From IMG/VR virus record IMGVR_UViG_3300044295_000306: a stretch of 64,000 bases of DNA; one strand, written 5' to 3'. Under the pieces are notes generated by a model. It searched no databases, was not told where the DNA came from, and saw nothing but the letters and a program-made list of their open reading frames with translations. The position numbers and the translations under genes were made by a program. The DNA is from a virus (lineage: Duplodnaviria > Heunggongvirae > Uroviricota > Caudoviricetes). Positions 2,842-37,688 of this stretch are shown one piece after another; position 1 is the stretch's first letter, and every line of letters begins with the position of its first letter.

Positions 2842-2858
2842 AAATAATTTTATTTTCT

Positions 2859-3209
2859 ATGCAAGGTATTCATTTAATAGGGGATTTTAGTGATTGTCTT
2901 GAAAATACAAGACTCATTAATCTTGTAAATTTTCAAGCGTTATGCTTGAAATATGTTGAGGAATCAAGATTAACATCACTAAATTATATATTTCATCAAT
3001 TTGATGAGGGTGGATTTACTGGTGCTATTGTTCTCGCTGAATCTCATTTAGCTATTCATACATGGCCAGAAAAAAATGGATTTACTCTAGATGTTTATGT
3101 ATGTAATTATTCACAAGATAATACTATTAAAGCAAAATGTCTATTCAATTTAGTTGTGGATTATTTTAATCCTATTAATAGGATTATTCAAGAAATAACT
3201 AGAAGTTAG
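2859..3209 (+). CDS. speD: S-adenosylmethionine decarboxylase proenzyme (small bacterial class 1 type)
   Basis: ESHLAIHTWPE pyruvoyl-processing motif plus N-terminal G-HLIGDF-C signature; one of few plus-strand genes. Confidence 0.65.
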   Translation: MQGIHLIGDFSDCLENTRLINLVNFQALCLKYVEESRLTSLNYIFHQFDEGGFTGAIVLAESHLAIHTWPEKNGFTLDVYVCNYSQDNTIKAKCLFNLVVDYFNPINRIIQEITRS

Positions 3210-3304
3210 TGGTACTCCCCCACGGAATCGAACCGTGCCGTTGCAGCCCATCTGACCGCTCTCCCGGACTTATAAGATCCAGCCGCTCACCAAAGCTGAG
3301 GAGC
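3210..3304 (-). tRNA. type-II (long variable arm) tRNA with anticodon UAU (non-canonical combination)
   Basis: acceptor GCUCCUC/GGGGAGU, anticodon stem CUGGAU/GUCCGG loop CUUAUAA, 26-nt variable region, T-arm CACGG-UUCGAUU-CCGUG, A73, CCA encoded. Confidence 0.5.
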
Positions 3305-3310
3305 AATTAT

Positions 3311-3387
3311 TGGTACCTCTCCTCGGATTCGAACCGAGAAACTACTCCTTTTGAGAGAGTTGACTTTACCAATTTGTCCAGAGAGGC
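3311..3387 (-). tRNA. type-I tRNA with anticodon CAA (Leu anticodon in short-variable-arm body)
   Basis: acceptor GCCUCUC/GAGAGGU, anticodon stem ACUCU/GGAGU loop CUCAAAA, T-arm CUCGG-UUCGAAU-CCGAG, CCA encoded. Confidence 0.5.
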
Positions 3388-3506
3388 AATACATCAGGAT
3401 AGTTTTCTACTTTTTATTTATAGTGAGAAATCGAAACTCACTTTGATATTATTTTTCAAATATCTATCTAAAATGTAATTAGTTGCAGAACCTATCCTAT
3501 TTTTAA

Positions 3507-4925
3507 TTACAGACTATATCGATCTTTCATTACAGTTTCCATCATAATATATTCTGGTGTGAAATTATCCAGATTACCCTTAAGCAATGAAGTAAGAATA
3601 CTAGGACTGAATCCAGAAACAAGTGCAGTACCAGATTCATTAAATTTCACAGGCACGTTATCATGTGCATGTAGATTCCAGAAAACAACACGAGGAGCAT
3701 TATAACCATTCGCTTCATACTTCCGACGAATCATTTCAATTGCACTGTCATCGTGTTGAGTACAAGAATCAAATTGCATGTCTGAAAGAATCAATAGCAT
3801 TTCAGGCATTTCACTTTGTGGAACTTTACCAGCAACCGCTACATTCAAAATCTTTTTAAATGCAGCAACGATATCGGTATTCATACTCCATTTTGATCTA
3901 ATCATCTGATCAATTTTTTCGTGAATATTACCGGTCAAATGCATCAATTCAGGTGAACCAGAGAAAGTCAAGAACGTATCCTTAAACTTCCCTTTATTCT
4001 TTTCAGCTAGATATAGACCCAAACTGACTGATACATCAAGACAAGTAAGATTCTTGTTTCCACCAACAGAACAAATCATTGATCCAGAAACGTCAACTAG
4101 TGGAAGAATGTTTGCATTACCAACATAGTTAGGCAAAGCTTCCCATTGTTTTTGAATAAGATCCTTTTCCACTTTATCGTAAGTTTGATTAAAACCAAAA
4201 GCACCAATACGACCCTTCAATACATCATGAGGAAAAATAGCGGATGCATTCACTTTTACATTCTTTTCACCTTTTACAAGGGAATCAACATATTCAGCAT
4301 ACTTTGGAGTATGACGATTGAATGCTTTCTTATACCGTGCTGCTGCAATAGAAGGAACATGACTGAAATTGATATTTTCCCAATCATTCGCACACATTTG
4401 AGTTTCAACAACCTTAGTCAATTCTACCAAACGCTTCCGATAGAATTTTGGAGTCCAACCAAAATATGAACGCAATTCAACAGCCTTTTCACCCTTTCGA
4501 GGCATCCATTTTGCACAAAGTCCATGACCAGCATCAAGAGCATTCTTGATCAAATCAAATGCAACATTACGAACATCACCAGATTCAAAAACAAGAAGAT
4601 CGTCCCAACGACCCACTTCAGGAACTTTATGAAGAAGTCGAATAGCATCTTGTGGATAATTTTGTGCAAGATATTTTAGAATTTGCCGAAAGATTTCACG
4701 TTCACCAGCGCCACCGCGAACATCACGTGCCCATTGTGCAATACGCAATGCAATTTCAGCATCTTCAACATAAGCACCCACAAAAGAAGGAATAATGTTT
4801 TGACCGCGGGATGCGCCGATCTTGAAAAAAAGATCAACATTCTTATTTGCGGTTTCAACACGGGCTCGCATACCATTAGTGGTACGAGTTTCTTGATTAA
4901 TAACAGCATTAACGAAAGTATTCAT
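3507..4925 (-). CDS. TROVE-like/DUF2828-type protein with C-terminal von Willebrand A (MIDAS) domain
   Basis: N-terminal LFFKIGASRG... region, C-terminal VDVSGSM MIDAS motif; 472 aa. Confidence 0.5.
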   Translation of the reverse strand: MNTFVNAVINQETRTTNGMRARVETANKNVDLFFKIGASRGQNIIPSFVGAYVEDAEIALRIAQWARDVRGGAGEREIFRQILKYLAQNYPQDAIRLLHKVPEVGRWDDLLVFESGDVRNVAFDLIKNALDAGHGLCAKWMPRKGEKAVELRSYFGWTPKFYRKRLVELTKVVETQMCANDWENINFSHVPSIAAARYKKAFNRHTPKYAEYVDSLVKGEKNVKVNASAIFPHDVLKGRIGAFGFNQTYDKVEKDLIQKQWEALPNYVGNANILPLVDVSGSMICSVGGNKNLTCLDVSVSLGLYLAEKNKGKFKDTFLTFSGSPELMHLTGNIHEKIDQMIRSKWSMNTDIVAAFKKILNVAVAGKVPQSEMPEMLLILSDMQFDSCTQHDDSAIEMIRRKYEANGYNAPRVVFWNLHAHDNVPVKFNESGTALVSGFSPSILTSLLKGNLDNFTPEYIMMETVMKDRYSL

Positions 4926-5149
4926 AATATTTACCTTTTTTCATCTGAATAGTTGTTATGATTTTTTAAAGATGATCATAAACATCTAACGGTTGCAGCT
5001 TTCGCTGCCCATGTATTTGCTGAACCTATTCATTTCTCAATCAACGGGATATCTTTTTCTTTTTTCAATAAAAGATTTTTTAATTGCTGAATGTATCCCA
5101 TATTTCTACAGATTCATCTTTATGCCAATTTACAGTTGGATTTGGTTTG

Positions 5150-5195
5150 ATTGCTGAACTGAATCTATTTCACTTATATTACTTTATTTACTGCA
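5150..5195 (-). promoter_or_regulatory. sigma70-like promoter (TTGACA-17-TAATAT)
   Basis: RC reads GCTTGACAAAATGCAGTAAATAAAGTAATAT upstream of 3507..4925. Confidence 0.5.
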
Positions 5196-5228
5196 TTTTG
5201 TCAAGCATTAGGAAACACTTTTTATTAC

Positions 5229-5301
5229 TGGCACCCCTAGAAGGAGTCAAACCTCCGCAAGCTGGATTAGAAGTCCTGCCGCCGGATTCGCCGGTAGGGG
5301 T
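5229..5301 (-). tRNA. tRNA, probably Arg(UCU), compact D-arm
   Basis: acceptor ACCCCUA/UAGGGGU perfect, T-arm GGAGG-UUUGACU-CCUUC, anticodon stem CAGGA/UCCAG (one A.A) loop CUUCUAA, CCA encoded. Confidence 0.4.
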
Positions 5302-5308
5302 ATTGTTC

Positions 5309-5393
5309 TGGTGCGAAAGGCGGGAATCGAACCCGCAAGCCCAAAGGCGTCGCGGTTTAAGCGCGATGTGTTTGCCTGTTTCACCACTCTCGC
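5309..5393 (-). tRNA. tRNA-Leu(UAA)
   Basis: acceptor GCGAGAG/CUUUCGC, anticodon stem UCGCG/CGCGA loop CUUAAAC, long variable arm, T-arm GCGGG-UUCGAUU-CCCGC, A73, CCA. Confidence 0.65.
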
Positions 5394-5404
5394 AATTCAT
5401 ACAA

Positions 5405-5435
5405 CCATTATACTATAAATTAACTATTTTGTCAA
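5405..5435 (-). promoter_or_regulatory. sigma70-like promoter (TTGACA-17-TATAAT)
   Basis: RC GCTTGACAAAATAGTTAATTTATAGTATAAT; its -10 region duplicates the 5' part of the adjacent tRNA. Confidence 0.5.
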
Positions 5436-5444
5436 GCATTTTTT

Positions 5445-5519
5445 TGGTGCTCTTAATAAGAATCAAACTTATATTTCCGCTTTACCAAAGCGGTGTAATA
5501 GTCATTATACTATAAGAGC
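5445..5519 (-). tRNA. tRNA-Thr(GGU)
   Basis: acceptor GCUCUUA/UAAGAGC, anticodon stem CCGCU/AGCGG loop UUGGUAA, T-arm AUAAG-UUUGAUU-CUUAU, CCA. Confidence 0.6.
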
Positions 5520-5524
5520 ATGTT

Positions 5525-5598
5525 TGGTGCCTCTTGACAGAATCGAACTGCCGTAACGGCCTTGTAAGGACCGAGTTCTACCATTAAACTAAAGAGGC
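5525..5598 (-). tRNA. tRNA-Val(UAC)
   Basis: acceptor GCCUCUU/AAGAGGC, anticodon stem CGGUC/GGCCG loop CUUACAA, T-arm GGCAG-UUCGAUU-CUGUC, CCA. Confidence 0.6.
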
Positions 5599-6162
5599 AT
5601 TTTCTTTCTTAATTCTTTCCATTAAATCATCAAAAAGAATTGGTGTATAATCAAGATGCTCAACCGACACACAATGATACCATGGATCGATCTTATTATC
5701 TTTCATAACACGCCTATCATGTAAATGTCCATGAATATTACCTGCAAATCTCCCTTTACTATCAGGATGAACGGGTACATGACTGAGAATAAAGTTATTC
5801 ATTACATGGTATGCTCTTATATCTCTAAAATACTTAACATATTCTTCTAGTTTAAAGATATCATGATTACCCTTAATAAGAACTTTATCTCCATTAAGCT
5901 TTTCGAGGGTAGGAAATGCTTTTTTGTTAATAAGAACATCACCAAGATGATAGACTTTATCTTTAGGACCAACAACGCTATTCCATTTAGCGATCATATC
6001 TTGATCCATTTGGAATGGATCATTCCATGGACGGAGTTTGGAAACTCCATCAGAGCCTGTAAATTTACAAACACCGAGGTGTCCGAAATGGGTATCTGCT
6101 ACTAAAAAAGTTTTCATAATTTTATATATGTTAGTGGGGTAATCTATGGGTAACGATCCCAT
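5584..6162 (-). CDS. calcineurin-like metallophosphoesterase (Ser/Thr phosphatase family)
   Basis: DTHFGH and GNHD metal-binding motifs. Confidence 0.6.
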   Translation of the reverse strand: MGSLPIDYPTNIYKIMKTFLVADTHFGHLGVCKFTGSDGVSKLRPWNDPFQMDQDMIAKWNSVVGPKDKVYHLGDVLINKKAFPTLEKLNGDKVLIKGNHDIFKLEEYVKYFRDIRAYHVMNNFILSHVPVHPDSKGRFAGNIHGHLHDRRVMKDNKIDPWYHCVSVEHLDYTPILFDDLMERIKKENASLV

Positions 6163-6211
6163 TCTATCACTTTCACAGAGTGAGGTGCTAAACCTTTACA
6201 CTAAGATTACC
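6135..6211 (-). tRNA. tRNA-His(GUG) with encoded G-1 and C73
   Basis: acceptor GUAAUCU/AGAUUAC, extra 5' G opposite C73, anticodon stem UCACU/AGUGA loop CUGUGAA, T-arm AUGGG-AUCGUUA-CCCAU, CCA. Confidence 0.6.
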
Positions 6212-6216
6212 ATTGT

Positions 6217-6291
6217 TGGTCTCACCGAGAGGAATCAAACCTCTATCATGACCTTAGGAGTGTCTTATTCTATTCATTGAACTACGGTGAG
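6217..6291 (-). tRNA. tRNA, probably Arg(CCU) (weak anticodon stem)
   Basis: acceptor CUCACCG/CGGUGAG, D-stem GUUC/GAAU, loop CUCCUAA, T-arm AGAGG-UUUGAUU-CCUCU, CCA. Confidence 0.45.
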
Positions 6292-6294
6292 ATG

Positions 6295-6365
6295 TGCCGA
6301 ATAATGGAATCGAGCCATTGTCTATGTTTTACGAGAACATTGTTTTACCACTAAACTAATTCGGC
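6295..6365 (-). tRNA. tRNA-Thr(CGU), CCA not encoded
   Basis: acceptor GCCGAAU/AUUCGGC, D-stem GUUU/AAAC, anticodon stem AUGUU/AACAU loop CUCGUAA, T-arm AAUGG-CUCGAUU-CCAUU. Confidence 0.55.
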
Positions 6366-6370
6366 TAATC

Positions 6371-6445
6371 TGGAGCGGATATCCGGTAACGATCCGGAAT
6401 CTAAACTTTGGCAAAGTTTCGTGCGTCCATTCTCACTCTATCCGC
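6371..6445 (-). tRNA. tRNA-Gly(GCC)
   Basis: acceptor GCGGAUA/UAUCCGC, anticodon stem AAACU/AGUUU loop UUGCCAA, T-arm UCCGG-AUCGUUA-CCGGA, CCA. Confidence 0.55.
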
Positions 6446-6960
6446 ATTTGTTTCCATCTATTTCGTATAGCATCTGAGATTTTTTTTCTATGCTCAACAG
6501 ATTTTTTTCTGCCCTTTAGTGTTTCGGAAATTTTTTTCCTATTGTTTTCATTTTTCATCGGATGATTTTCCATTATTTTTAGCTTATGGTTTTCCGATAA
6601 TTTAATTCCTTTTTTTGCTTCAGATATCTTTTTCTTTGTTTCATCAGATAGTTTTGCTCCGGTTCTGAGTCCTTTACCTGAGCGATTTATATATCCGAAA
6701 CCACCTTTACCACCATCACAGATATTATATGAATTTTCATTCAAAACCACAAGTTCTTTCTCTTTATTTCGCATATCATTCTCATTATCAAAAATATGGA
6801 GAATTTCTTTTGTGAAATTGTCCATGCCGTATTTTTCAATGGCCTTTTTGATAATTTTTCCAGAGCCCATATAGCCGTCATTCAGGCAGTCTGTCTGGTG
6901 CATTCCGATATAAAACTTGTTGTTTATTTTATTTGTGACTTTATATACCGTATAGAACAT
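6433..6960 (-). CDS. GIY-YIG homing endonuclease
   Basis: N-terminal FYTVYKVTNKINNKFYIGMH GIY-YIG motif, basic C-terminal DNA-binding tail; 3' end overlaps tRNA-Gly. Confidence 0.65.
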   Translation of the reverse strand: MFYTVYKVTNKINNKFYIGMHQTDCLNDGYMGSGKIIKKAIEKYGMDNFTKEILHIFDNENDMRNKEKELVVLNENSYNICDGGKGGFGYINRSGKGLRTGAKLSDETKKKISEAKKGIKLSENHKLKIMENHPMKNENNRKKISETLKGRKKSVEHRKKISDAIRNRWKQMRIE

Positions 6961-7033
6961 TATATTTCTCCTATAATGTTCTATTTAGTCATGCAAGGTG
7001 GCAGGCTACCATTACATCATGACCGCTTTATTT

Positions 7034-7516
7034 CTATGCTGCACGATACTGACTCATGACTTCTTTATAACGATCAGCACAGTAAGATGCCGCAAAAGCT
7101 TGTGGTTTTACTAGAGGAACAACATTACAAGTTCCACGAATATAACCGATAGCTTGTTGTACAACACAGCTTGAACCATGCATTTCATCTGGATTAATAT
7201 CTAGATGAACTTCTACTTCACGATCTTCCAGTACATCAGCAAGTTTTTGAAACATTTCGCTTGCTTTATATACTTCATTCATCAATCTCATTGCAGGTTT
7301 ATCTTTGCGTTGATCATAATCACGTTCTCTTGTTACTTCACCGAATACACGACAACCATGTTTACCATCAACGTGAACAACAACAACGACAGTATAATCA
7401 GCATACCATACGCCATTATTTCTAAATCTTTCCGAATCTGCACCAATATAGATACGAGATTCAGGACTTTGCGCGTCAATGAAAGCTTTTACTTCGTTTA
7501 AATTAATTTTCTTCAT
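7034..7516 (-). CDS. hypothetical protein, possible RNase H-like (DUF458-like) fold
   Basis: IYIGADSE...VVVVVH motif pattern; weak. Confidence 0.3.
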   Translation of the reverse strand: MKKINLNEVKAFIDAQSPESRIYIGADSERFRNNGVWYADYTVVVVVHVDGKHGCRVFGEVTRERDYDQRKDKPAMRLMNEVYKASEMFQKLADVLEDREVEVHLDINPDEMHGSSCVVQQAIGYIRGTCNVVPLVKPQAFAASYCADRYKEVMSQYRAA

Positions 7517-7535
7517 GTTATCACCTCTACGTTAA

Positions 7536-7611
7536 TGGCGTCCCGAGAGAGATTCGAACTCCCACCCTTAGTTTTGGAGACTAATATGCTGCCGTTAAAC
7601 ACTATCGAGAC
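7536..7611 (-). tRNA. tRNA-Trp(CCA)
   Basis: acceptor GUCUCGA/UCGGGAC, anticodon stem UUAGU/ACUAA loop CUCCAAA, T-arm GGGAG-UUCGAAU-CUCUC, G73, CCA. Confidence 0.55.
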
Positions 7612-7614
7612 ATT

Positions 7615-7688
7615 TGGTACCCAGAACTGGTAACGATCCAGTGTCTCTCGGTTATCAGCCGAGGGCTCTACCTTTGAGCTATCCGGGT
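7615..7688 (-). tRNA. tRNA-Ile(GAU)
   Basis: acceptor ACCCGGA/UCUGGGU, D-stem GCUC/GAGC, anticodon stem CUCGG/CCGAG loop CUGAUAA, T-arm ACUGG-AUCGUUA-CCAGU, CCA. Confidence 0.6.
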
Positions 7689-7693
7689 ATAAC

Positions 7694-7769
7694 TGGTGCC
7701 TCCTTGTGGTTACGCTCCACACTCCCACGCTCTTCAGGCGTATGCTTTCACTAGATTAGCTTAGGAGGC
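7694..7769 (-). tRNA. tRNA-Phe(GAA) (unusual T-loop AGCGUAA)
   Basis: acceptor GCCUCCU/AGGAGGC, anticodon stem UACGC/GCGUG loop CUGAAGA, T-stem UGUGG/CCACA, CCA. Confidence 0.5.
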
Positions 7770-8129
7770 TTATCCTGCACTTCTTGTAATAAAGTTAGTT
7801 CTTACCTTCTTGGGTTTGAAATACTTATTAATTAATTCTTTACAAATCTCTACATCAACTGTTTTACAACTAAACACATCGATATAAAAATCACCATTAT
7901 CATCTACAAAATGTCCTGTGATTGAACTAGTCTCAATCATTTGACACAAACTAAATCCTGATTTGGTTGGATCATGTTGAGCAAAATGAACAATAGAAGG
8001 TTCACCATATGCAACCATTTCAATCGCAGGAACAAGTTCTTTTACAAAACTATAAATCTTATCTTTTGATCTAACACAATCAAGTTCACCCTGACTGCAA
8101 TCAAACATTGCATGATAACCCCAATACAT
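7770..8129 (-). CDS. S-adenosylmethionine decarboxylase-like paralog (divergent)
   Basis: ETSSITGHFVDDNGDFYIDVFSC aligns to ESHLTIHTWPE...IDLFTC of class-1 AdoMetDC; N-terminal G-H-F-C pattern conserved. Confidence 0.45.
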   Translation of the reverse strand: MYWGYHAMFDCSQGELDCVRSKDKIYSFVKELVPAIEMVAYGEPSIVHFAQHDPTKSGFSLCQMIETSSITGHFVDDNGDFYIDVFSCKTVDVEICKELINKYFKPKKVRTNFITRSAG

Positions 8130-8148
8130 AATATATATCCTTTTAGTC

Positions 8149-8223
8149 TGGTGGTAATAAAGGGACTTGAACCCCTACCTTACTCCGTATGAAGGAGGCG
8201 CACTACCATTATGCTATATTACC
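8149..8223 (-). tRNA. tRNA with CAU anticodon (Met or Ile2)
   Basis: acceptor GGUAAUA/UAUUACC, D-stem GCAU/GUGC, loop UUCAUAC, T-arm AGGGG-UUCAAGU-CCCUU, CCA. Confidence 0.55.
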
Positions 8224-8740
8224 TTATTGTTAATATTATTGTTTCATCTGTATTAATCTGTATTTTATCTCTTTTTCTCTTTAATGTCAATTCTTCAAAA
8301 GAAATATATTTTCTATCATAATAAGAATCAAATAATCTTACTCTCTCTTTAGCCAAATCAACATTAGATACTACACTCCAATGATACCAAGGATTACTTA
8401 TAGAAATTATAGCAATGTTATCATCACTCTTACTTAGTTCTTCATATAAACAAGCAAGATATTCTTCAATACAATCAAAATGATCCAATTCAAATGTCTG
8501 ATCATATTTTATTTTTGAAAAACCTTTTTGCTTCTTTAATACATTTAGAAGAAATATAATATCTTCAACATAAGAACCTTGAATATATCTCATATGGAAT
8601 GTTCGTGCTTTTACTGTAATCAATTTATTCAGTATATTCTCAGCTTTTTTTGTTGTTAGTTCTTTCTTATAATGTAAAGCATTGATTATTGAATAAAATC
8701 CACACATTCCATCTAAACTTCCTTGCTTAAATGCTTCCAT
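8219..8740 (-). CDS. hypothetical protein, possible papain-like cysteine peptidase fold
   Basis: GMCGFYSIINAL N-terminal Cys motif and downstream His; weak. Confidence 0.3.
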   Translation of the reverse strand: MEAFKQGSLDGMCGFYSIINALHYKKELTTKKAENILNKLITVKARTFHMRYIQGSYVEDIIFLLNVLKKQKGFSKIKYDQTFELDHFDCIEEYLACLYEELSKSDDNIAIISISNPWYHWSVVSNVDLAKERVRLFDSYYDRKYISFEELTLKRKRDKIQINTDETIILTIR

Positions 8741-8756
8741 GATATAACTTTCAAAG

Positions 8757-8831
8757 TGGTACCACCTGAAGGAATCAAACCCTCAATTCAAGGTCCGTAG
8801 CCAAGCGTGATATTCGTTTCACCAAGGTGGT
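8757..8831 (-). tRNA. tRNA-Arg(ACG) (anticodon stem with U.U mismatches)
   Basis: acceptor ACCACCU/AGGUGGU, D-stem GUGA/UCAC, loop CUACGGA, T-arm GAGGG-UUUGAUU-CCUUC, CCA. Confidence 0.5.
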
Positions 8832-8837
8832 ATTAAT

Positions 8838-8925
8838 TGGTGCTGGGCACAGGATTCGAACCTGCGTAGGAATTTCTTCCGCTTGCTTACAAGGCAAGTG
8901 CTTTTAGCCACTCAGCCAACCCAGC
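8838..8925 (-). tRNA. type-II (Ser/Leu-like body) tRNA with anticodon UGU (non-canonical)
   Basis: acceptor GCUGGGU/GCCCAGC, D-region UGGCUGAGUGGCUAAAAGC Ser-like, anticodon stem CUUGC/GCAAG loop CUUGUAA, variable arm CGGAAGAAAUUCCUAC, A73, CCA. Confidence 0.5.
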
Positions 8926-8929
8926 ATAT

Positions 8930-9004
8930 TGGTGGAGACTGGGGGAGTCGAACCCCCGACTTCGCGGTGCAAGCGCAATGTTTTCCCAACTATACTAAGT
9001 CCCC
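8930..9004 (-). tRNA. tRNA-Ala(UGC)
   Basis: acceptor GGGGACU/AGUCUCC (G3.U70), anticodon stem UUGCG/CGCGA loop CUUGCAC, T-arm GGGGG-UUCGACU-CCCCC, CCA. Confidence 0.6.
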
Positions 9005-9117
9005 AAATTCTTTACGGTTACGAACTTCCGTAGTCATTTTATCGTAATGACCGATAGATTGTCGCAGACAACCCGAATAACACGCTATCGAGAAAGGATA
9101 ATATCAATAGAATTTCA

Positions 9118-9158
9118 ATGAAGTCTGTACATTATACTATATAACATTATTTTTGTCA
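9118..9158 (-). promoter_or_regulatory. internal sigma70-like promoter in tRNA cluster (TTGACA-17-TATAAT)
   Basis: RC CCAGTTGACAAAAATAATGTTATATAGTATAATGTACAG. Confidence 0.5.
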
Positions 9159-9160
9159 AC

Positions 9161-9238
9161 TGGTAGGAATGGAGGGATTCGAACCCATCACTTGGCAGAT
9201 TAAAAGTCTGCTGTGCTAACCGTTAACACTACATTCCC
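9161..9238 (-). tRNA. tRNA-Lys(UUU)
   Basis: acceptor GGGAAUG/CAUUCCU, D-stem GUGU/GCAC, anticodon stem GCAGA/UCUGC loop CUUUUAA, T-arm UUCGAAU loop, CCA. Confidence 0.6.
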
Positions 9239-9244
9239 AATTCA

Positions 9245-9320
9245 TGGTGGAGACAGAGGGACTTGAACCCATCAACCTCCCGGTTAAGAGCCGGTTACTC
9301 TACCATTGAGTTATATCTCC
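9245..9320 (-). tRNA. tRNA-Lys(CUU)
   Basis: acceptor GGAGAUA/UGUCUCC, D-stem ACUC/GAGU, loop CUCUUAA, T-loop UUCAAGU, CCA. Confidence 0.55.
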
Positions 9321-9326
9321 ATTTCT

Positions 9327-9404
9327 TGGAGTAGTGAGTCGGAATCGAACCGACGGCTTTAGAGTTTTGCAGACTCTTGCATTGGGCCTCTCTGCCATCA
9401 CTAC
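9327..9404 (-). tRNA. tRNA-Cys(GCA)
   Basis: acceptor GUAGUGA/UCACUAC, anticodon stem AGAGU/ACUCU loop CUGCAAA, T-arm GUCGG-UUCGAUU-CCGAC, U73, CCA. Confidence 0.6.
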
Positions 9405-9412
9405 ATTATTTT

Positions 9413-9496
9413 TGGTGCCCGAAGAGGGACTTGAACCCCCACGCCTTGCGGCACATGCTTCTAAGACATGCGTGGCTGCCATTACACCATTCGGGC
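9413..9496 (-). tRNA. tRNA-Leu(UAG)
   Basis: acceptor GCCCGAA/UUCGGGC, anticodon stem CAUGU/GCAUG loop CUUAGAA, long variable arm, T-arm GGGGG-UUCAAGU-CCCUC, A73, CCA. Confidence 0.65.
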
Positions 9497-9503
9497 AATA
9501 CAT

Positions 9504-9597
9504 TGGTGGAAGATAGAGGATTCGAACCTCTGGTCCGATTTTCATCGGACTACGATTTAGCAAATCGCTGCAATCGACCGGACTCTGCCAATCTTCC
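9504..9597 (-). tRNA. tRNA-Ser(GCU)
   Basis: acceptor GGAAGAU/AUCUUCC, anticodon stem GCGAU/AUCGU loop UUGCUAA, long variable arm GUCCGAU..AUCGGAC, T-arm AGAGG-UUCGAAU-CCUCU, CCA. Confidence 0.65.
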
Positions 9598-9604
9598 TTA
9601 ATTT

Positions 9605-9681
9605 TGGTTGCGGGAAACAGGAGTCGAACCTGATATCTCTGGCTTATGAGACCAGTATGTAAACCGTTTCACTCTCCCGCA
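9605..9681 (-). tRNA. tRNA with CAU anticodon (second copy; Met or Ile2)
   Basis: acceptor UGCGGGA/UCCCGCA, anticodon stem CUGGU/GCCAG loop CUCAUAA, T-loop UUCGACU, CCA. Confidence 0.55.
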
Positions 9682-9687
9682 TTTGTT

Positions 9688-9740
9688 TGGTGGTAGGCCA
9701 ACTATCTCATGAAAATAGTCGAATCCGGAATATGCCTACC
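9688..9740 (-). other. 53-nt tRNA-like minihelix / truncated tRNA pseudogene
   Basis: perfect 7-bp acceptor stem GGUAGGC/GCCUACC plus ACCA, single internal 5-bp hairpin ACUAU-UUUCAUGAG-AUAGU, no D- or T-arm. Confidence 0.4.
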
Positions 9741-9746
9741 GTTGAT

Positions 9747-9832
9747 TGGTGCGTCAGGTAGGATTCGAACCTACTCAGCCTGAGGCGACGGATTTACAGT
9801 CCGTTGTAACTCTCCCACTTTACCGCTGACGC
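9747..9832 (-). tRNA. tRNA-Tyr(GUA), bacterial type with long variable arm
   Basis: acceptor GCGUCAG/CUGACGC, D-stem GUAA/UUAC, anticodon stem ACGGA/UCCGU loop CUGUAAA, variable stem CCU/AGG, T-arm GUAGG-UUCGAAU-CCUAC, A73, CCA. Confidence 0.65.
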
Positions 9833-9852
9833 ATTGTTAGTTTGCTCAATTC

Positions 9853-9928
9853 TGGTCTCTCTAAAAGGATTTGAACCTTTACCTCATGCTCCCAAAGCAC
9901 GAACGCTGCCAGATTACGCCATAGAGAG
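9853..9928 (-). tRNA. tRNA-Pro(UGG)
   Basis: acceptor CUCUCUA/UAGAGAG, anticodon stem CGUGC/GCAUG loop UUUGGGA (G37), T-arm AAAGG-UUCAAAU-CCUUU, CCA. Confidence 0.6.
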
Positions 9929-10099
9929 ATATCTATCTATATAAGATTGAATTTCATTCTTATATCTGCTGTGCATATATTGAATTCTTGGGAGGATTAT
10001 TTTAGTGCCTCCCGGTCACCATCATCAACGCATTACCGTTTACCCCATGCTCGGTTATTTTCACGGCTTTCTTTGACTTAAATTAAAAGATGATCCTTT

Positions 10100-10214
10100 T
10101 ACGATATGTGGCCACACGCCGCGGACCCACGGCCCTATATCAACCCAATAGGAAAGGATCATTGACTGGCGCCGATACGGGGTTACGATCCCCGACTATA
10201 GCCTTGACAGGGCC
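10100..10214. other. GC-rich structured island inside AT-rich tRNA cluster, contains plus-strand promoter
   Basis: local GC far above background; GGCCCUAUA...UAUAG..GGGCC long-range stem; GGGG-TTACGAT-CCCC hairpin; TTGACA-18-TACACT facing the plus-strand ORF. Confidence 0.35.
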
Positions 10215-10553
10215 ATGTGCAGACCACTACACTATATCGGCTTTATATATAACTTTATGATTTATTATTACATTATGGTCGACCCTGATAAACCTAATAA
10301 ATGTAAATTAGGTATCACTAAAGATCCACAACAACGTATTAAAGCTTATAAAACGGCTGCTCCTAATTGCTATTTCTTAGCAGTCTATATTATACCTGAA
10401 AAATATCACGAAAAACGTATTCTTGATATCATTAAAGATGTTTTTCGTGTTGAAAGTGAATATGTTCATTGTCCACCTTCTCTTATTAAAAACATCGTTG
10501 AATGTTATTTTACAGATAATAACATTATTACTGGCGGAGAGGGAGGGACTTGA
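10215..10553 (+). CDS. T5orf172/GIY-YIG-superfamily homing-endonuclease-like protein (true start probably near 10275)
   Basis: KCKLGITKDPQQRIKAYKT motif; plus strand; 3' end overlaps minus-strand tRNA-Ser. Confidence 0.4.
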   Translation: MCRPLHYIGFIYNFMIYYYIMVDPDKPNKCKLGITKDPQQRIKAYKTAAPNCYFLAVYIIPEKYHEKRILDIIKDVFRVESEYVHCPPSLIKNIVECYFTDNNIITGGEGGT

Positions 10554-10625
10554 ACCCCCACACCCCTTACAGGGGCCCTCTGTTTTCAAGACAGCTGCCG
10601 CTAGGCCAACTCGGCTAACCTCTCC
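10532..10625 (-). tRNA. tRNA-Ser(UGA)
   Basis: acceptor GGAGAGG/CCUCUCC, loop CUUGAAA, long variable arm, T-arm GGGGG-UUCAAGU-CCCUC, G73, CCA. Confidence 0.6.
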
Positions 10626-10631
10626 TAATTC

Positions 10632-10704
10632 TGGAGCGTCCAGGCGGATTCGAACCGTCTCCGACAGCTTGGAAGGCTGTGTCCTCTCCCAGGAGAATGA
10701 ACGC
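10632..10704 (-). tRNA. tRNA-Gly(UCC)
   Basis: acceptor GCGUUCA/UGGACGC, anticodon stem ACAGC/GCUGU loop CUUCCAA, T-arm GACGG-UUCGAAU-CCGCC, U73, CCA. Confidence 0.55.
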
Positions 10705-10711
10705 ATATTCT

Positions 10712-10785
10712 TGGCAGCCCCGCTTGGAATCGAACCAAGATCGATAGATTCAAAATCTATTGTTTTACCATTACACTACGAGGCA
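10712..10785 (-). tRNA. tRNA-Gln(UUG)
   Basis: acceptor (U)GCCUCG/CGGGGCU, anticodon stem AUAGA/UCUAU loop UUUUGAA, T-arm CUUGG-UUCGAUU-CCAAG, G73, CCA. Confidence 0.55.
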
Positions 10786-10794
10786 ATTGTCTGA

Positions 10795-10819
10795 CTCCGC
10801 CCAGAGGAATCGAACCTCT
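10795..10819 (-). pseudogene. tRNA 3' fragment (T-arm plus 3' acceptor strand only)
   Basis: AGAGG-UUCGAUU-CCUCU T-arm followed by GGGCGGA with no matching 5' acceptor strand. Confidence 0.35.
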
Positions 10820-10845
10820 CTAATACGGAATCATATTATGATTTG

Positions 10846-10920
10846 CTGACCGAGCTGGAATCGAACCAGCCTATTCTTGATTAACAGTCAAGCCCGCCTC
10901 ACCTTGAACGGTATCGGTCA
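10846..10920 (-). tRNA. tRNA-Asn(GUU), no encoded CCA, embedded in 21-bp extended helix
   Basis: acceptor UGACCGA/UCGGUCA continued by perfect flanking inverted repeat ATATTATGATTTGC (10833-10846) / GCAAATCATAATAT (10921-10934); anticodon stem CUUGA/UCAAG loop CUGUUAA; T-arm GCUGG-UUCGAUU-CCAGC. Confidence 0.55.
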
Positions 10921-11065
10921 GCAAATCATAATATTTTCATTTCTTCTATACCATATTGAAATGCTCAACTTTTTCAGATTGACTAGAAATTGTAGATCAG
11001 TGTTGGCTGCCACCAACTAATCATCTAACCCCTTTTGGCAGTTAGAGGCTTAAGCATTTCAATAT

Positions 11066-11140
11066 GCAAACTCATTGTAGGCAGGACTCGAACCTGCAAG
11101 TGGCGTTTATTTCCACCGGCCCTCAATGAGAGCCTATGTT
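11066..11140 (-). other. degenerate tRNA-like element (acceptor-like stem + T-arm, no D-arm)
   Basis: CUCAUUG/CAAUGAG 7-bp stem, T-arm GCAGG-UUCGAGU-CCUGC, internal GUGG..CCAC hairpin; lies between CCATATTGAA-type inverted repeats. Confidence 0.3.
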
Positions 11141-11212
11141 TATCCATTCCATCACTACGAGTTTCTGGGCTCATGACTTCCCAGTATGGAGCAGGGTAAT
11201 TAAGCCTGCTTT

Positions 11213-11349
11213 ACCATATTGAAGCATACTAAGGAGTTGAACCTCCTACAACCATTGTAAGGTTGTCCTCACCGAAGAAATATGACATTCAATAATTAAA
11301 TTCTGTGATCAGCAGGTTAATTATTGACTGCTAATATGCTTCAATATGG
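11213..11349 (-). other. tRNA-like element with ~40-nt insertion, enclosed by 14-bp inverted repeat
   Basis: CCATATTGAAGCAT (11213-11226) / ATGCTTCAATATGG (11336-11349) form acceptor-like 14-bp helix; internal ACAACC-UUACAAU-GGUUGU hairpin and AGGAG-GUUCAAC-CUCCU T-arm-like hairpin. Confidence 0.3.
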
Positions 11350-11425
11350 CGCTCTCACGGGGATTCGAACCCACGCTTTCTGCCTTGAAAGGGCAGCGTC
11401 CTCAATACCAATAGACGATGAGAGC
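11347..11425 (-). tRNA. tRNA-Glu(UUC)
   Basis: acceptor GCUCUCA/UGAGAGC, anticodon stem CUGCC/GGCAG loop CUUUCAA, T-loop UUCGAAU, G73, CCA. Confidence 0.55.
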
Positions 11426-36624: not shown

Positions 36625-37653
36625 TTATTTTTCCCCTAAAAGAAACTTGTTAGATATAGTTTTAAAAGAAATCTTCGAATCACGAATATTCTTATAAACA
36701 TATCCTTCTTTTTCTACTCTAAGATTAAGGAAAGAAGGTCCTTCCGCAAGCTTCAATAGACTTGCAACAGTAACATCTTTATCCAAACTTCTAACAGTCA
36801 TCACAGGCACATGATTAAGAGCCATATAAAAACAAAAATCATGTCTCTCTCTTGCAGAAATATATATCTGCCGATCAATATCAAAGATATCAAACAGATA
36901 AAACTTCAATTCTTGCAGATTGTACTTGTTTCCCTGAACACCTAGACCAATCAATTCACCTTGTAAAGCAATATTTCTTGATCCAAACACTTCACGAATT
37001 CTATCATGAATTCTCTCTTGAATAGCTACTTTCCAAAATGAATTGTTATCATCCCGCTTCAAATCAAGATTTCTCGAACATACACCATCATAACCTTGAT
37101 TTACATAAACTGTCATTGAAGAACCATCCAATTTTTCAGTGATTTCCCATAGTTCATTAGAACCTTTCCATTGTTCCAATTCATGAACCAGATTCTGAAT
37201 TCTTTCTTGATCGGTTTTCGGAATAAATGAAGGAAATGATCCTCTCACAGTTCCTCTCAACTGAGCAGGAATTTCCATTTCCCATTTGTTAATGTTTAAT
37301 TCTTCTGAAACATCCTCACCCAATTCTACTTGTCTCGGAATAATATTGCAAGGAAGCAATAAACCTTGACTGATTTGCCCACGCAGTTTAACAGTCCTCA
37401 GTCTTTCACCCGCAATATTCTGATATACTCTGGGTTCTTTTCCTTTAGAAAGAAACGATGCAATAGAATTGGGAATCCAACTATCAATCTCACAGTAGAT
37501 AGCCAAATCACCAATCTTATATTCACCCCTCTTAACAACAACCTGCCATCCATCAACAGTAGCTACCTCAATAGCATCCGCATTAGGAATAGACTTGATA
37601 TCATTAATTTTCCGAATAGTCGCAAGTTTTCTCATAATATACTCCAGTTTCAC
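36625..37653 (-). CDS. Rnl2-like ATP-dependent RNA ligase with N-terminal tRNA-binding (Myf/EMAP-type OB) domain
   Basis: N-terminal IRKINDIKSIPNADAIEVATVDGWQVVVKRGEYKIGDL (tRNA_bind-like); ligase motifs EKLDGSS (I), LQGELIG (III), EGYVYK (IV), FKTISNKF (V). Confidence 0.6.
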   Translation of the reverse strand: MKLEYIMRKLATIRKINDIKSIPNADAIEVATVDGWQVVVKRGEYKIGDLAIYCEIDSWIPNSIASFLSKGKEPRVYQNIAGERLRTVKLRGQISQGLLLPCNIIPRQVELGEDVSEELNINKWEMEIPAQLRGTVRGSFPSFIPKTDQERIQNLVHELEQWKGSNELWEITEKLDGSSMTVYVNQGYDGVCSRNLDLKRDDNNSFWKVAIQERIHDRIREVFGSRNIALQGELIGLGVQGNKYNLQELKFYLFDIFDIDRQIYISARERHDFCFYMALNHVPVMTVRSLDKDVTVASLLKLAEGPSFLNLRVEKEGYVYKNIRDSKISFKTISNKFLLGEK

Positions 37654-37688
37654 TCATAATAACATAATTAAATAATTTTGTCAACTAC

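What the first reader, a model, noticed from the sequence alone, without database searches (positions are those of the whole stretch)
36625..37653. RNA ligase (Rnl2-type motifs) fused to an N-terminal tRNA-binding OB domain, in a genome with ~30 tRNAs
Nucleotidyltransferase motifs I (KLDG), III (QGELIG), IV (EGYVYK) and V (FKTISNKF) follow an N-terminal segment matching the Myf/EMAP/CsaA-type tRNA-binding fold (PNADAIEVATVDGWQVVVKRGEYKIGDL). Phage RNA ligases such as T4 Rnl1 repair tRNAs cleaved by host anticodon nucleases (PrrC, RloC, VapC-like). A ligase with a built-in tRNA-recognition domain suggests a dedicated tRNA-repair counter-defence. No polynucleotide kinase/phosphatase partner is recognisable in this window, which is notable.
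Basis: partly seen in the sequence, partly recalled or inferred. Interest (0 to 1): 0.65.

Follow-up and report, generated by a model that had tools for sequence, protein, structure and literature searches.

The report
Ordinary Rnl5-family phage RNA ligase

Summary
The ORF is real: 36625..37653 (-), with the likely true start at ATG 37635, giving 336 aa.

The protein is a full-length member of the Rnl5 family (DraRnl/NgrRnl):
- It scores 206.7 bits on TIGR02306, against an equivalog cut-off of 151.
- It carries PF21189 plus PF09414.
- It matches the NgrRnl crystal structure end to end (E=7e-80, 46% identity).
- All 12 ATP- or metal-contacting residues are conserved.

Rnl5 enzymes seal duplex nicks with a 3'-OH RNA strand and are weak on single-stranded RNA. 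"Built-in tRNA recognition" is therefore unsupported.

An RNA-repair role is plausible. In related phage contigs the ligase sits beside a P-loop kinase, phosphatases and a Ro60-like protein. Two of these partners lie inside this window's tRNA array.

Verdict: known kind, low novelty.

The parts
36625..37635 (-). Rnl5-family ATP-dependent RNA ligase gene (336 aa from ATG 37635; stop codon 36625-36627). The mechanical ORF extends to a GTG at 37653.
   Evidence: ORF. TIGR02306 scores 206.7 bits against a cut-off of 151. PF21189 plus PF09414. NgrRnl 5cot matches at E=7e-80 over the full length. phrog_968 'RNA ligase' at 1.7e-90. An identical public protein, P0001, is annotated 'RNA ligase (TIGR02306 family)'.
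37270..37635 (-). N-terminal OB domain (aa 7-128 in 342-aa numbering). It contains R8, D57 and K123, the counterparts of NgrRnl Arg4, Asp53 and Lys121, which hold the ATP gamma-phosphate and the second metal.
36628..37269 (-). Nucleotidyltransferase (adenylyltransferase) domain, aa 129-342. Key residues: T147, R151, K174 (motif I nucleophile, codon 37132-37134), D176, R194, E233 (motif III), F254 (motif IIIa), E316 (motif IV), K331 (motif V). The protein ends 11 residues after K331, so there is no C-terminal domain.
   Evidence: PF09414 over aa 169-331. Alignment to NgrRnl. Residue mapping and conservation.
37656..37684 (-). Sigma-70-like promoter candidate, TTGACA-17-TATTAT with TG before the -10 hexamer. 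It lies in the 53-bp gap between the upstream gene (which ends at 37689) and the ligase start. Consensus match only.
   Evidence: 11 of 12 matches; sequence. The region as a whole has no excess of such sites (42 found, 38.1 expected), so this is a candidate, not a demonstrated promoter.
37642..37645 (-). Shine-Dalgarno GGAG, 6 nt upstream of ATG 37635.
   Evidence: Read directly from the sequence.
3507..4925 (-). Possible functional associate (inferred). A DUF2828/DUF7788 protein with Ro60-like architecture (helical TROVE-like region plus vWA), encoded inside the tRNA array.
   Evidence: Pfam. phrog_850 'RNA-binding protein' at 1.7e-140. The only Foldseek PDB hit at E<=0.001 is D. radiodurans Ro/Rsr 2nvo (E=9.7e-7, full length, but TM only 0.36; model pLDDT 74.7). 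A 64-68% identical homologue lies immediately upstream of Rnl5 in L018-L021.
5584..6162 (-). Possible functional associate (inferred). A calcineurin-like metallophosphoesterase inside the tRNA array, and a candidate 3'-end-healing enzyme.
   Evidence: Metallophos_2 at 23.3 bits, below the cut-off of 27. phrog_547 'phosphoesterase' at 1.1e-46. Homologues lie 1.7-2.1 kb from Rnl5 in L018 (58%) and L034 (46%), and 0.3 kb from it in L035 (36%).
2159..11425 (-). tRNA gene array: 30 genes by ARAGORN plus one more by Rfam. It lies about 25 kb from the ligase.

Best explanation
The gene encodes a catalytically intact Rnl5-family ATP-dependent RNA ligase (the DraRnl/NgrRnl family) in an uncultivated T4-like phage whose contig reaches at least 307 kb.

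**Mechanism (by homology to NgrRnl and DraRnl)**
1. K174 attacks the ATP alpha-phosphate to form ligase-AMP. A two-metal mechanism uses D176, E233 and E316. K331 and R151, together with R8, D57 and K123 of the N-terminal OB domain, orient the pyrophosphate leaving group.
2. AMP is transferred to a 5'-phosphate at a nick.
3. The 3'-OH of an RNA strand attacks, sealing the nick.

**Expected substrate.** A 3'-OH/5'-PO4 nick in duplex RNA or an RNA:DNA hybrid whose 3'-OH strand is RNA, probably with Mn2+ as cofactor.

**The OB domain.** It is evolutionarily related to tRNA-binding OB folds. In this family, however, it acts as a catalytic and nick-sensing accessory, not as a demonstrated tRNA reader.

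**Biological role (inferred, about 50%).** It is the sealing component of a phage RNA-break-repair capacity. Possible partners are a metallophosphoesterase and a Ro60-like protein encoded in the tRNA array. This would be functionally analogous to T4 Rnl2.
For: **Family membership**
- TIGR02306 equivalog scores 206.7 bits against a cut-off of 151.15, over aa 10-339.
- PF21189 plus PF09414.
- NgrRnl matches at E=7.1e-80 and 46% identity over 324 aligned residues.
- All 12 NgrRnl ATP- or metal-contact residues are conserved, and they are nearly invariant in the 120 closest homologues.

**Family biochemistry**
- Nick sealing requires an RNA 3'-OH strand; activity on single-stranded RNA is feeble; Mn2+ is preferred; the N domain is needed for step 1 (PMC4408790, PMC1807946).
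- The OB domain contacts the ATP gamma-phosphate (PMC7261155).

**Not the phage's DNA ligase**
- A separate DNA ligase lies at 13153-14439.

**RNA-repair context in related phages**
- L018: Ro-like, 65-aa protein, Rnl5, PTP-like phosphatase, AAA_33 kinase, metallophosphoesterase.
- L013: kinase, phosphatase, Rnl5.
- A metallophosphoesterase lies next to Rnl5 in L034 and L035, and within about 4 kb in L041. A HAD_SAK_2 phosphatase lies about 3 kb away in L047.

**Phage type and distribution**
- T4-like core genes flank the window.
- 347 phage records carry homologues, mostly annotated 'RNA ligase'.
Against: - No biochemical data exist for this protein or for any phage Rnl5.
- The physiological substrates of Rnl5 are unknown. 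The only genetic evidence, from D. radiodurans, points to DNA repair (PMC5397189).
- No 5'-kinase was found in the window, nor in the 10 kb beyond either end.
- Most Rnl5 neighbourhoods examined show no repair partner. S-CREM1 and JG004 have only small hypothetical ORFs nearby. Others sit beside recombination or replication genes, or beside DenV.
- The neighbourhood association was not tested against a null model.
Confidence: 0.85

Rival explanations
1. This is a dedicated tRNA-repair ligase whose N-terminal OB domain is a built-in tRNA-recognition module. It reseals tRNAs cut by host anticodon nucleases as a counter-defence, and it is linked to the phage's 30-tRNA array.
For: - The genome carries about 31 tRNAs.
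- Two genes whose homologues neighbour Rnl5 elsewhere (Ro60-like and metallophosphoesterase) sit inside the tRNA array here.
- Anti-defence genes lie nearby: Acb3-like at 34523-35245 in the window, and a Tad3-like gene in the sister contig L001.
- One related locus, L024, has 20 tRNAs within 8 kb of its Rnl5.
- The jumbo-phage literature already proposes that phage ATP-dependent ligases supplement tRNAs against tRNA-cleaving defences (PMC7824862).
Against: - The OB domain is a universal Rnl5 feature, including in Deinococcus, fungi and Naegleria. Its demonstrated role is ATP gamma-phosphate and metal binding for step 1 (PMC7261155), and those residues are conserved here.
- Deleting the N domain does not impair sealing of a pre-adenylylated nick (PMC4408790, PMC1807946).
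- Rnl5 prefers duplex nicks and is feeble on single-stranded RNA. Rnl1 and Rnl4 are the families tailored to stem-loop breaks (PMC4408790).
- No PF01588 profile match was found.
- 17 of 19 related viral loci have no tRNA within 10 kb of the ligase.
- The ligase lies about 25 kb from the array.
- No kinase was found that could heal 5'-OH ends.
Confidence: 0.12
2. A role in DNA metabolism. The ligase seals nicks in phage DNA whose 3' end carries ribonucleotides. Such nicks could be 'ribo-patches' left by repair polymerases, or RNA-primer remnants. In this role it complements the phage's conventional DNA ligase, as proposed for DraRnl in Deinococcus.
For: - Rnl5 enzymes join RNA-OH to 5'-pDNA on a DNA template. 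Two terminal ribonucleotides are enough for detectable sealing, although NgrRnl activity falls sharply compared with an all-RNA strand (PMC4408790).
- The D. radiodurans rnl knockout is sensitive to ionising radiation and reassembles its genome late (PMC5397189).
- Here the gene lies 5-8 kb from ribonucleotide reductase and ThyX.
- In relatives it sits beside a pyrimidine-dimer glycosylase (L040, and nearby in S-CREM1), and beside UvsX/RecA and helicase genes.
Against: - Related loci place the ligase in clusters with a P-loop kinase, PTP-like and metallo-phosphatases and a Ro60-like RNA-binding protein. This is typical of RNA end-healing.
- Large phages commonly intermix nucleotide-metabolism genes with other genes, so proximity is weak evidence.
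- No experiment has been done in any phage.
Confidence: 0.25
3. It is a DNA ligase with an unrelated OB fold, or an inactive ligase relic.
For: Covalent nucleotidyltransferase motifs are shared between DNA ligases and RNA ligases.
Against: - No DNA-ligase Pfam or NCBIfam family matches the protein.
- A bona fide ATP-dependent DNA ligase is encoded at 13153-14439.
- All catalytic residues are intact.
Confidence: 0.01

Closest known systems
Rnl5 family: Naegleria gruberi NgrRnl (PDB 5COT, 5COU, 6VT*) and Deinococcus radiodurans DraRnl (DR_B0094; TIGR02306)
   Same: - Same two-domain architecture: an N-terminal OB domain plus a C-terminal NTase domain, with no C-terminal appendage.
- Same length, about 340 aa.
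- 46% identity to NgrRnl over the full length.
[quoted passage not shown]
- Motif I is KLDG, as in NgrRnl.
   Different: - The host is a T4-like phage rather than a cell. Phage homologues have been known since 2007 (Aeromonas phage 44RR2.8t).
- This protein has not been characterised biochemically.
- No structural feature distinguishing it from the family was found.
T4 RNA ligase 2 (Rnl2 family)
   Same: - The NTase domain falls in the same Pfam family, PF09414.
- Both are nick-sealing enzymes that require a 3'-OH RNA strand, and both are carried by T4-like phages with no proven physiological role.
- The expected working mode is therefore the same.
   Different: - Rnl2 has a signature C-terminal domain needed for nick recognition and no N-terminal OB domain.
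- This protein has the opposite arrangement, so it is not an Rnl2 family member.
T4 Rnl1 plus Pnkp tRNA-repair system (counter to the PrrC anticodon nuclease)
   Same: - A phage-encoded ATP-dependent RNA ligase that may belong to a heal-and-seal pathway.
- Related phage loci place a P-loop kinase and phosphatases next to Rnl5.
   Different: - The ligase family differs. There is no Rnl1 C-terminal tRNA-specificity domain.
- The family prefers duplex nicks over stem-loop breaks.
- No Pnkp is recognisable in the window, nor in the 10 kb beyond either end.
tRNA_bind OB domains (PF01588: Trbp111, CsaA, EMAPII/AIMP1, Arc1p, MetRS C-terminal domain, PheRS-beta B2)
   Different: - No sequence-profile match to PF01588.
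- In Rnl5 the domain packs on the NTase active site and binds the ATP gamma-phosphate.
- tRNA binding has never been shown for it.
Ro60/Rsr-associated bacterial RNA-repair operons (rsr-Y RNA-rtcBA), and the ROT/TROVE-containing phage RNA-repair systems described by Aravind and colleagues (PMC7824862)
   Same: - A Ro60-like protein (3507-4925) is encoded among tRNA genes.
- Its homologue is adjacent to Rnl5, a kinase and phosphatases in L018.
   Different: - The ligase here is Rnl5, not RtcB.
- No Y RNA was detected by Rfam.
- The components are dispersed over 31 kb in this genome.

Membership tests
Rnl5 (DraRnl/NgrRnl, TIGR02306) | N-terminal OB domain fused to a C-terminal NTase domain, with no C-terminal appendage | tested here: met
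   PF21189 covers aa 10-101 and PF09414 covers aa 169-331. The protein ends 11 residues after the motif V lysine. It aligns to NgrRnl over the full length.
Rnl5 (DraRnl/NgrRnl, TIGR02306) | Score above the curated equivalog HMM cut-off | tested here: met
   206.7 bits against a cut-off of 151.15; profile positions 2-340 of 341 are matched.
Rnl5 (DraRnl/NgrRnl, TIGR02306) | Motif I lysine nucleophile plus metal- and ATP-binding residues of motifs I, III, IIIa, IV and V, and Arg149 | tested here: met
   K174, D176, E233, F254, E316, K331, R151, T147 and R194 all match NgrRnl. They are invariant or conservatively substituted in 120 homologues.
Rnl5 (DraRnl/NgrRnl, TIGR02306) | OB-domain residues that engage the ATP gamma-phosphate and second metal (NgrRnl Arg4, Asp53, Lys121) | tested here: met
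   R8, D57 and K123 are conserved. Across the 120 homologues the counts are 120/120, 120/120 and 118/120.
Rnl5 (DraRnl/NgrRnl, TIGR02306) | Seals 3'-OH/5'-PO4 duplex nicks only when the 3'-OH strand is RNA; prefers Mn2+ | not testable with these tools
   Needs a biochemical assay. The property is taken from PMC4408790 and PMC1807946.
Rnl2 (T4 Rnl2 / kinetoplastid REL1) | Signature C-terminal domain following the NTase domain | tested here: not met
   No sequence follows motif V. Only PF21189 and PF09414 are found.
Rnl1 (T4 Rnl1, tRNA-repair ligase) | Rnl1-type NTase domain and C-terminal tRNA-specificity domain | tested here: not met
   No Rnl1 family was reported by Pfam or NCBIfam at E<=1. 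No Rnl1 structure appears among the PDB sequence hits.
tRNA_bind domain (PF01588; Trbp111/CsaA/EMAPII/PheRS-B2) | Sequence-profile match to PF01588 | tested here: not met
   Not listed in the Pfam scan at max E-value 1. HMMER's filters may hide hits above about 0.1.
tRNA_bind domain (PF01588; Trbp111/CsaA/EMAPII/PheRS-B2) | Shared OB-fold topology, closer than to generic OB folds | tested here: met
tRNA_bind domain (PF01588; Trbp111/CsaA/EMAPII/PheRS-B2) | Binds tRNA (typically as a dimer, at the tRNA elbow) | not testable with these tools
   Needs a binding assay. No report exists for any Rnl5 N domain in the papers read.
ATP-dependent DNA ligase | PF01068 adenylation domain plus a C-terminal DNA-ligase OB domain | tested here: not met
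   No such hits for this protein. These domains are found instead in the separate gene at 13153-14439.
Heal-and-seal RNA-repair system (ligase + 5'-kinase + 3'-phosphatase/CPDase) | A polynucleotide 5'-kinase encoded with the ligase | tested here: not met
   No Pnk was found among the 51 window ORFs scanned. No homologue of the L018/L013 AAA_33 kinase is present (tblastn E>0.5). None appears in the precomputed Pfam annotation of the 10 kb beyond either end. The only P-loop kinase domain lies in the 655-aa cytidylyltransferase fusion at 58348-60315, inside a sugar-nucleotide gene cluster. The rest of the genome, more than 220 kb, could not be examined.
Heal-and-seal RNA-repair system (ligase + 5'-kinase + 3'-phosphatase/CPDase) | A 3'-end-healing phosphoesterase encoded with the ligase | tested here: inconclusive
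   A calcineurin-like phosphoesterase lies at 5584-6162 (phrog_547 at 1.1e-46; Pfam below cut-off), 31 kb away and inside the tRNA array. Its homologues sit 0.3-2.1 kb from Rnl5 in L018, L034 and L035. Its activity on RNA ends is unknown.

The most novel reading that the evidence does not exclude
In this T4-like phage, three proteins form a dispersed tRNA repair or quality-control system: the Rnl5 ligase, the Ro60-like protein and the metallophosphoesterase. The last two are encoded inside the tRNA array, and in other phages their homologues are adjacent to Rnl5, a P-loop kinase and a PTP-like phosphatase. In this reading, the ligase's Trbp111-like OB domain does double duty by docking on nicked tRNA. 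That would give the long-orphan Rnl5 family its first physiological RNA substrate.
Probability: 0.12. Interest if true: 0.6.

Novelty: new member of a known kind. Interest (0 to 1): 0.22.

Why it matters
As it stands, this is a routine annotation. The exact protein is already in public data, labelled 'RNA ligase (TIGR02306 family)'. The family has crystal structures and detailed enzymology.

The residual value lies in one open question: the physiological substrates of Rnl5 ligases remain unknown. The phage gene neighbourhoods found here place Rnl5 beside a kinase, phosphatases and a Ro60-like protein. In this genome, two of those genes are relocated into the tRNA array. That offers a concrete, testable route to asking whether phage Rnl5 enzymes repair RNA, possibly tRNA, during infection.

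Tried and rejected
- **Membership in PF01588 (tRNA_bind) by sequence.** No hit. Only fold-level similarity was found.
- **DNA-ligase classification.** Rejected.
- **Rnl1 or Rnl2 membership.** Rejected on architecture.
- **Nucleotide-level match of window 30000-45000 to known phages.** None. The phage is uncultivated, and T4-like by its core genes.
- **The 655-aa protein at 58348-60315 as a hidden polynucleotide kinase.**
  - It has a HIGH-type cytidylyltransferase domain plus a Zeta/AAA_33 kinase domain.
  - It has no PDB sequence relatives.
  - It shows no similarity to the Rnl5-linked kinase of L018.
  - It sits among sugar-nucleotide enzymes.
  - It was therefore judged unlikely to be Pnk.
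- **NT5C/HAD protein at 54410-54913 as a Pnkp-type phosphatase.** It matches the deoxyribonucleotidase PHROG, so it is unlikely.
- **Physical linkage of Rnl5 to tRNA genes across viral contigs.** Seen in only 2 of 19 loci.
- **A conserved immediate neighbour of Rnl5 across phages.** None in S-CREM1, JG004, or the contigs carrying P0029, P0074 and P0043. The adjacent 67-aa and 113-aa genes are syntenic only in close relatives and scattered elsewhere.
- **Y RNA near the Ro-like gene.** Rfam reports nothing but tRNAs.
- **PDB sequence and profile searches for the Ro-like protein.** Nothing. Only the fold search found Ro.
- **Extending beyond the window by 10 kb on each side.** No Pnkp or RtcB. 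The 307-kb contig itself was not retrievable: it was not among the contigs returned by the look-up of encoding contigs and it is absent from IMG/VR.
- **The NgrRnl structure paper (PNAS).** Not held in the library.
Full report
**1. The observation**

An ORF occupies 36625..37653 on the minus strand, 342 aa from a GTG. Three lines of evidence point to ATG 37635 (336 aa) as the functional start:
- a GGAG lies 6 nt upstream of that ATG;
- the identical public protein P0001 starts there;
- homology to the solved relative begins at residue 7.

The window holds 30 tRNA genes by ARAGORN, at 3210-11425 and all on the minus strand. Rfam adds one more at 2159-2233.

**2. What the protein is**

Profile searches are unambiguous.
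- Pfam finds PF21189 'PHA02142 OB-fold domain' (aa 10-101, 1.1e-32) and PF09414 'RNA_ligase' (aa 169-331, 1e-27).
- NCBIfam's equivalog model TIGR02306 'RNA_lig_DRB0094' scores 206.7 bits against a cut-off of 151.15, covering the model end to end.
- PHROGs gives phrog_968 'RNA ligase' at 1.7e-90.
- Against PDB sequences, the top hits are the Naegleria gruberi RNA ligase structures (5COT and others) at E=7e-80 over residues 7-338. That is 46% identity over 324 aligned positions.

This is the Rnl5 family, founded on Deinococcus radiodurans DraRnl (DR_B0094) and NgrRnl. The papers describing it define it by exactly this architecture: an N-terminal OB domain, a C-terminal nucleotidyltransferase (NTase) domain, and no C-terminal appendage (PMC4408790, PMC1807946).

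I mapped every residue that the NgrRnl papers identify as contacting ATP or the two metals. [quoted passage not shown] All twelve are conserved here, as R8, D57, K123, T147, R151, K174, D176, R194, E233, F254, E316 and K331. In the 120 closest database homologues they are invariant or conservatively substituted. The protein is therefore predicted to be catalytically competent.

The family is very large. The homologue search hit its 8000-candidate ceiling at E<=1e-10. In addition, 347 GenBank phage records encode a homologue, mostly annotated 'RNA ligase'. The best matches are Synechococcus phage S-CREM1 at 52% and Limnohabitans phage DC31 at 49%.

**3. The N-terminal domain**

At the sequence-profile level there is no PF01588 match.

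The resemblance is not new and is not specific to this phage. Raymond and Shuman, citing Martins and Shuman 2004, already described the DraRnl N module as a putative homologue of the PheRS B2 OB fold (PMC1807946).

The function established for this domain is not tRNA recognition.
[quoted passage not shown] Together they orient the pyrophosphate leaving group (PMC7261155).
- Deleting the domain cripples lysine adenylylation and overall nick sealing, but improves sealing of a pre-adenylylated nick (PMC4408790, PMC1807946).
- Those residues are invariant here.

**4. What Rnl5 enzymes do**

DraRnl and NgrRnl seal 3'-OH/5'-PO4 nicks in duplexes when the 3'-OH strand is RNA. They accept DNA or RNA as the 5'-phosphate and template strands, prefer Mn2+, do not seal all-DNA nicks, and are 'comparatively feeble' on single-stranded RNA (PMC4408790).

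The same authors contrast two groups. Rnl1 and Rnl4 are tailored to breaks in stem-loops such as tRNA anticodon loops. Rnl2 and Rnl5 are tailored to duplex nicks.

The physiological substrates are unknown. The only genetics is the D. radiodurans rnl knockout. It is sensitive to ionising radiation and slow to reassemble its genome, which led to a 'ribo-patch' DNA-repair model, although RNA repair was not excluded (PMC5397189). Phage homologues have been noted since 2007 (Aeromonas phage 44RR2.8t). A comparative study of jumbo phages already proposes that phage ATP-dependent RNA ligases, with kinases, phosphoesterases and sometimes ROT/TROVE proteins, back up phage tRNAs against tRNA-cleaving defences (PMC7824862).

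**5. Context in this genome**

The window has no nucleotide-level match to known phages. Genes just outside both ends are T4 core genes: gp32, gp59, DsbA, RNase H, UvsX, a gp41-type helicase and a split B-family DNA polymerase. The cluster records for P0001 and P0121 list a longest contig of 307,349 bp.

Features around the ligase:
- It is preceded by a near-consensus sigma-70-like site, TTGACA-17-TGtTATTAT, in a 53-bp intergenic gap. This is a consensus match only.
- It heads a run of tightly packed small genes that ends near an Acb3-like (anti-CBASS) gene at 34523-35245.
- A sister-strain contig also carries a Tad3-like gene that is absent from the window.
- A separate ATP-dependent DNA ligase lies at 13153-14439.

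I scanned 51 window ORFs against Pfam: all 49 of at least 140 aa, plus the two small genes next to the ligase. No Pnkp, RtcB, 2H or HD candidate appeared. Relevant items:
- A calcineurin-like phosphoesterase at 5584-6162 (Pfam below cut-off; phrog_547 at 1.1e-46).
- A DUF2828/DUF7788 protein at 3507-4925 (phrog_850 'RNA-binding protein', 1.7e-140). Both of these lie inside the tRNA array.
- A 655-aa fusion of a cytidylyltransferase and a P-loop kinase at 58348-60315. It sits in a sugar-nucleotide gene cluster and is unlikely to be Pnk.
- A deoxyribonucleotidase-type HAD protein at 54410-54913.

A model of the DUF2828 protein (pLDDT 74.7) has exactly one Foldseek PDB hit at E<=0.001: D. radiodurans Ro/Rsr (2nvo, E=9.7e-7, aligned over the full length). 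The low TM score of 0.36 means this should be read as shared architecture, a helical TROVE-like region plus vWA, and not as a close match.

**6. Comparative neighbourhoods**

Twenty-nine IMG/VR loci encode relatives at 42-76% identity over the matched segment; full-length matches are 42-57%. tRNA genes lie within 10 kb of the ligase in only 2 of the 19 loci scanned.

Searching all window proteins against those loci, followed by Pfam scans of the neighbours and reciprocal searches, revealed clusters of the RNA-repair type.
- **L018** (L019-L021 are the same phage). Gene order:
  - Ro-like DUF2828 (66% identical to the window copy);
  - a 65-aa protein;
  - Rnl5;
  - a 178-aa PTP/DSP-like phosphatase (Pfam hits just below threshold, including the 'Swiss Army Knife' PTP family);
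  - a 78-aa protein;
  - a 172-aa AAA_33 P-loop kinase (62.8 bits);
  - a 181-aa protein;
  - a 201-aa metallophosphoesterase (58% identical to window 5584-6162).
- **L013** (independent). The kinase (60%) and the phosphatase (54%) lie within 2 kb upstream of Rnl5.
- **L034 and L035.** A metallophosphoesterase lies 1.7 kb and 0.3 kb from Rnl5, respectively.
- **L041.** A different Metallophos gene lies 3.2 kb away.
- **L047** (a lambdoid phage). A HAD_SAK_2 phosphatase lies about 3 kb away.

Other neighbourhoods show no such genes. Some of these place Rnl5 next to DenV, UvsX or helicase genes, or next to an NMNAT-Nudix gene.

I did not compute a null expectation, so the association is suggestive and not established. 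The window has no homologue of the L018 kinase or of the PTP-like phosphatase (tblastn E>0.5).

**7. Most likely mechanism**

Shown by sequence and structure homology:
- a three-step ATP-dependent ligase with K174 as the adenylylated nucleophile;
- two-metal catalysis through D176, E233 and E316;
- triphosphate positioning by K331 and R151, together with the OB-domain residues R8, D57 and K123.

Inferred from family biochemistry: the substrate is a 3'-OH/5'-phosphate nick in a duplex with an RNA 3'-OH strand, and Mn2+ is preferred.

Inferred from neighbourhoods in related phages, at about 50% confidence: the biological job is sealing RNA breaks after end healing. The metallophosphoesterase and the Ro60-like protein of the tRNA array are possible partners, making the enzyme a functional analogue of T4 Rnl2.

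The DNA 'ribo-patch' role (about 25%) cannot be excluded. The specific idea that the OB domain reads tRNA is possible but unsupported (about 12%).

**8. Comparison with known families, and novelty**

The protein meets every testable defining feature of Rnl5. It fails the architectural criteria for Rnl2 and Rnl1, and it fails all the criteria for DNA ligases. The exact sequence is already public and correctly labelled. It is an ordinary new member of a known, structurally solved family.

The tRNA-fold resemblance is real but was published long ago, and it has been reinterpreted mechanistically.

The only mildly interesting residue concerns gene order. Phage Rnl5 genes sometimes sit in kinase/phosphatase/Ro-like cassettes, and in this genome two of those cassette genes have been placed inside the tRNA array. 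This is a lead on the unresolved physiological role of Rnl5, and it fits the RNA-repair framework already proposed for jumbo phages.

Noticed in passing
window 3507-4925 (-): A 472-aa DUF2828/DUF7788 protein is encoded between tRNA genes. Its predicted structure has one significant PDB match, D. radiodurans Ro60/Rsr (2nvo, E=9.7e-7, full-length alignment, low TM of 0.36); the other hits are vWA domains only. It is very highly conserved, at 65-82% identity across many phage contigs. A homologue sits directly upstream of Rnl5 in L018-L021. Rfam detected no Y RNA.
   Followed up: partly
window 5584-6162 (-); L018 4499-5104; L034 7772-8260; L035 11342-12823: A calcineurin-like metallophosphoesterase (phrog_547) lies inside the tRNA array. 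Homologues lie 0.3-2.1 kb from Rnl5 in three independent viral contigs. The L035 copy is 493 aa and has a weak intein-like match in its extra region.
   Followed up: partly
L018 1-5104 and L013 7978-11017: An apparent heal-and-seal cassette surrounds Rnl5 in related phages. It comprises an AAA_33 P-loop kinase (172 aa), a PTP/DSP-like phosphatase (178 aa, Pfam hits just below threshold), a metallophosphoesterase and a Ro-like protein. Enrichment was not tested statistically.
   Followed up: partly
window 34523-35245 (-); L001 15139-15600: An Acb3-like protein (CBASS inhibitor family PF25187, 1.3e-27) is encoded about 1.4 kb downstream of the ligase, in the same run of small genes. A sister-strain contig also has a Tad3-like (anti-Thoeris, PF25185) gene that is absent from the window (tblastn). 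This suggests a variable anti-defence region.
   Followed up: partly
window 38280-40061 (-): A 593-aa protein lies two genes upstream of the ligase. It has a predicted signal peptide, seven and a half tandem 22-residue cysteine-containing repeats (CPGYAxAYxxQQCxLxALxxxx) and a Pro/Gln/Ser-rich region. It has no Pfam match. It is conserved in close relatives (L038, L039, L041).
   Followed up: no
window 19094-21102 and 27174-27818 (-): Four separate pentapeptide-repeat proteins of 182-225 aa each, three of them in tandem. This is unusual gene dosage for a phage. One speculative possibility is DNA mimicry or gyrase protection.
   Followed up: no
window 58348-60315 (-): A 655-aa fusion of a HIGH-type cytidylyltransferase domain, a Zeta-toxin/AAA_33 P-loop kinase domain and an unassigned C-terminal region of about 260 aa. 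It sits next to UDP-galactopyranose mutase, an NAD-dependent epimerase and an FkbM methyltransferase (60345-63727), which suggests a glycan or sugar-nucleotide module.
   Followed up: partly
window 2159-2233, 3210-3304, 11073-11161 (-): The two tRNA callers disagree. Rfam finds a tRNA at 2159-2233 that ARAGORN misses. ARAGORN calls an unusually long (95-nt) tRNA-Ile(tat) and an 89-nt tRNA-Asn(att), and Rfam does not report either at its gathering threshold.
   Followed up: no
window 6433-6960 and 41135-41560 (-); L044 1508-2194: GIY-YIG (SegE-like) homing-endonuclease genes are present. One lies inside the tRNA array and one lies near the ribonucleotide reductase genes. Just outside the window, the B-family DNA polymerase gene is split by a GIY-YIG gene.
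   Followed up: no
window 7034-7516 and 15874-16452 (-): Two further nuclease-like genes are present. One is an RNaseH_like (PF04308) protein inside the tRNA array. The other is an Rv2179c-like 3'-5' exoribonuclease domain protein.
   Followed up: no
window 36422-36625 (-): The 67-aa gene overlaps the ligase stop by one base. It has homologues 1.6-7.5 kb from Rnl5 in three more distant loci (L041, L013, L028; 41-48% identity). Its function is unknown.
   Followed up: partly
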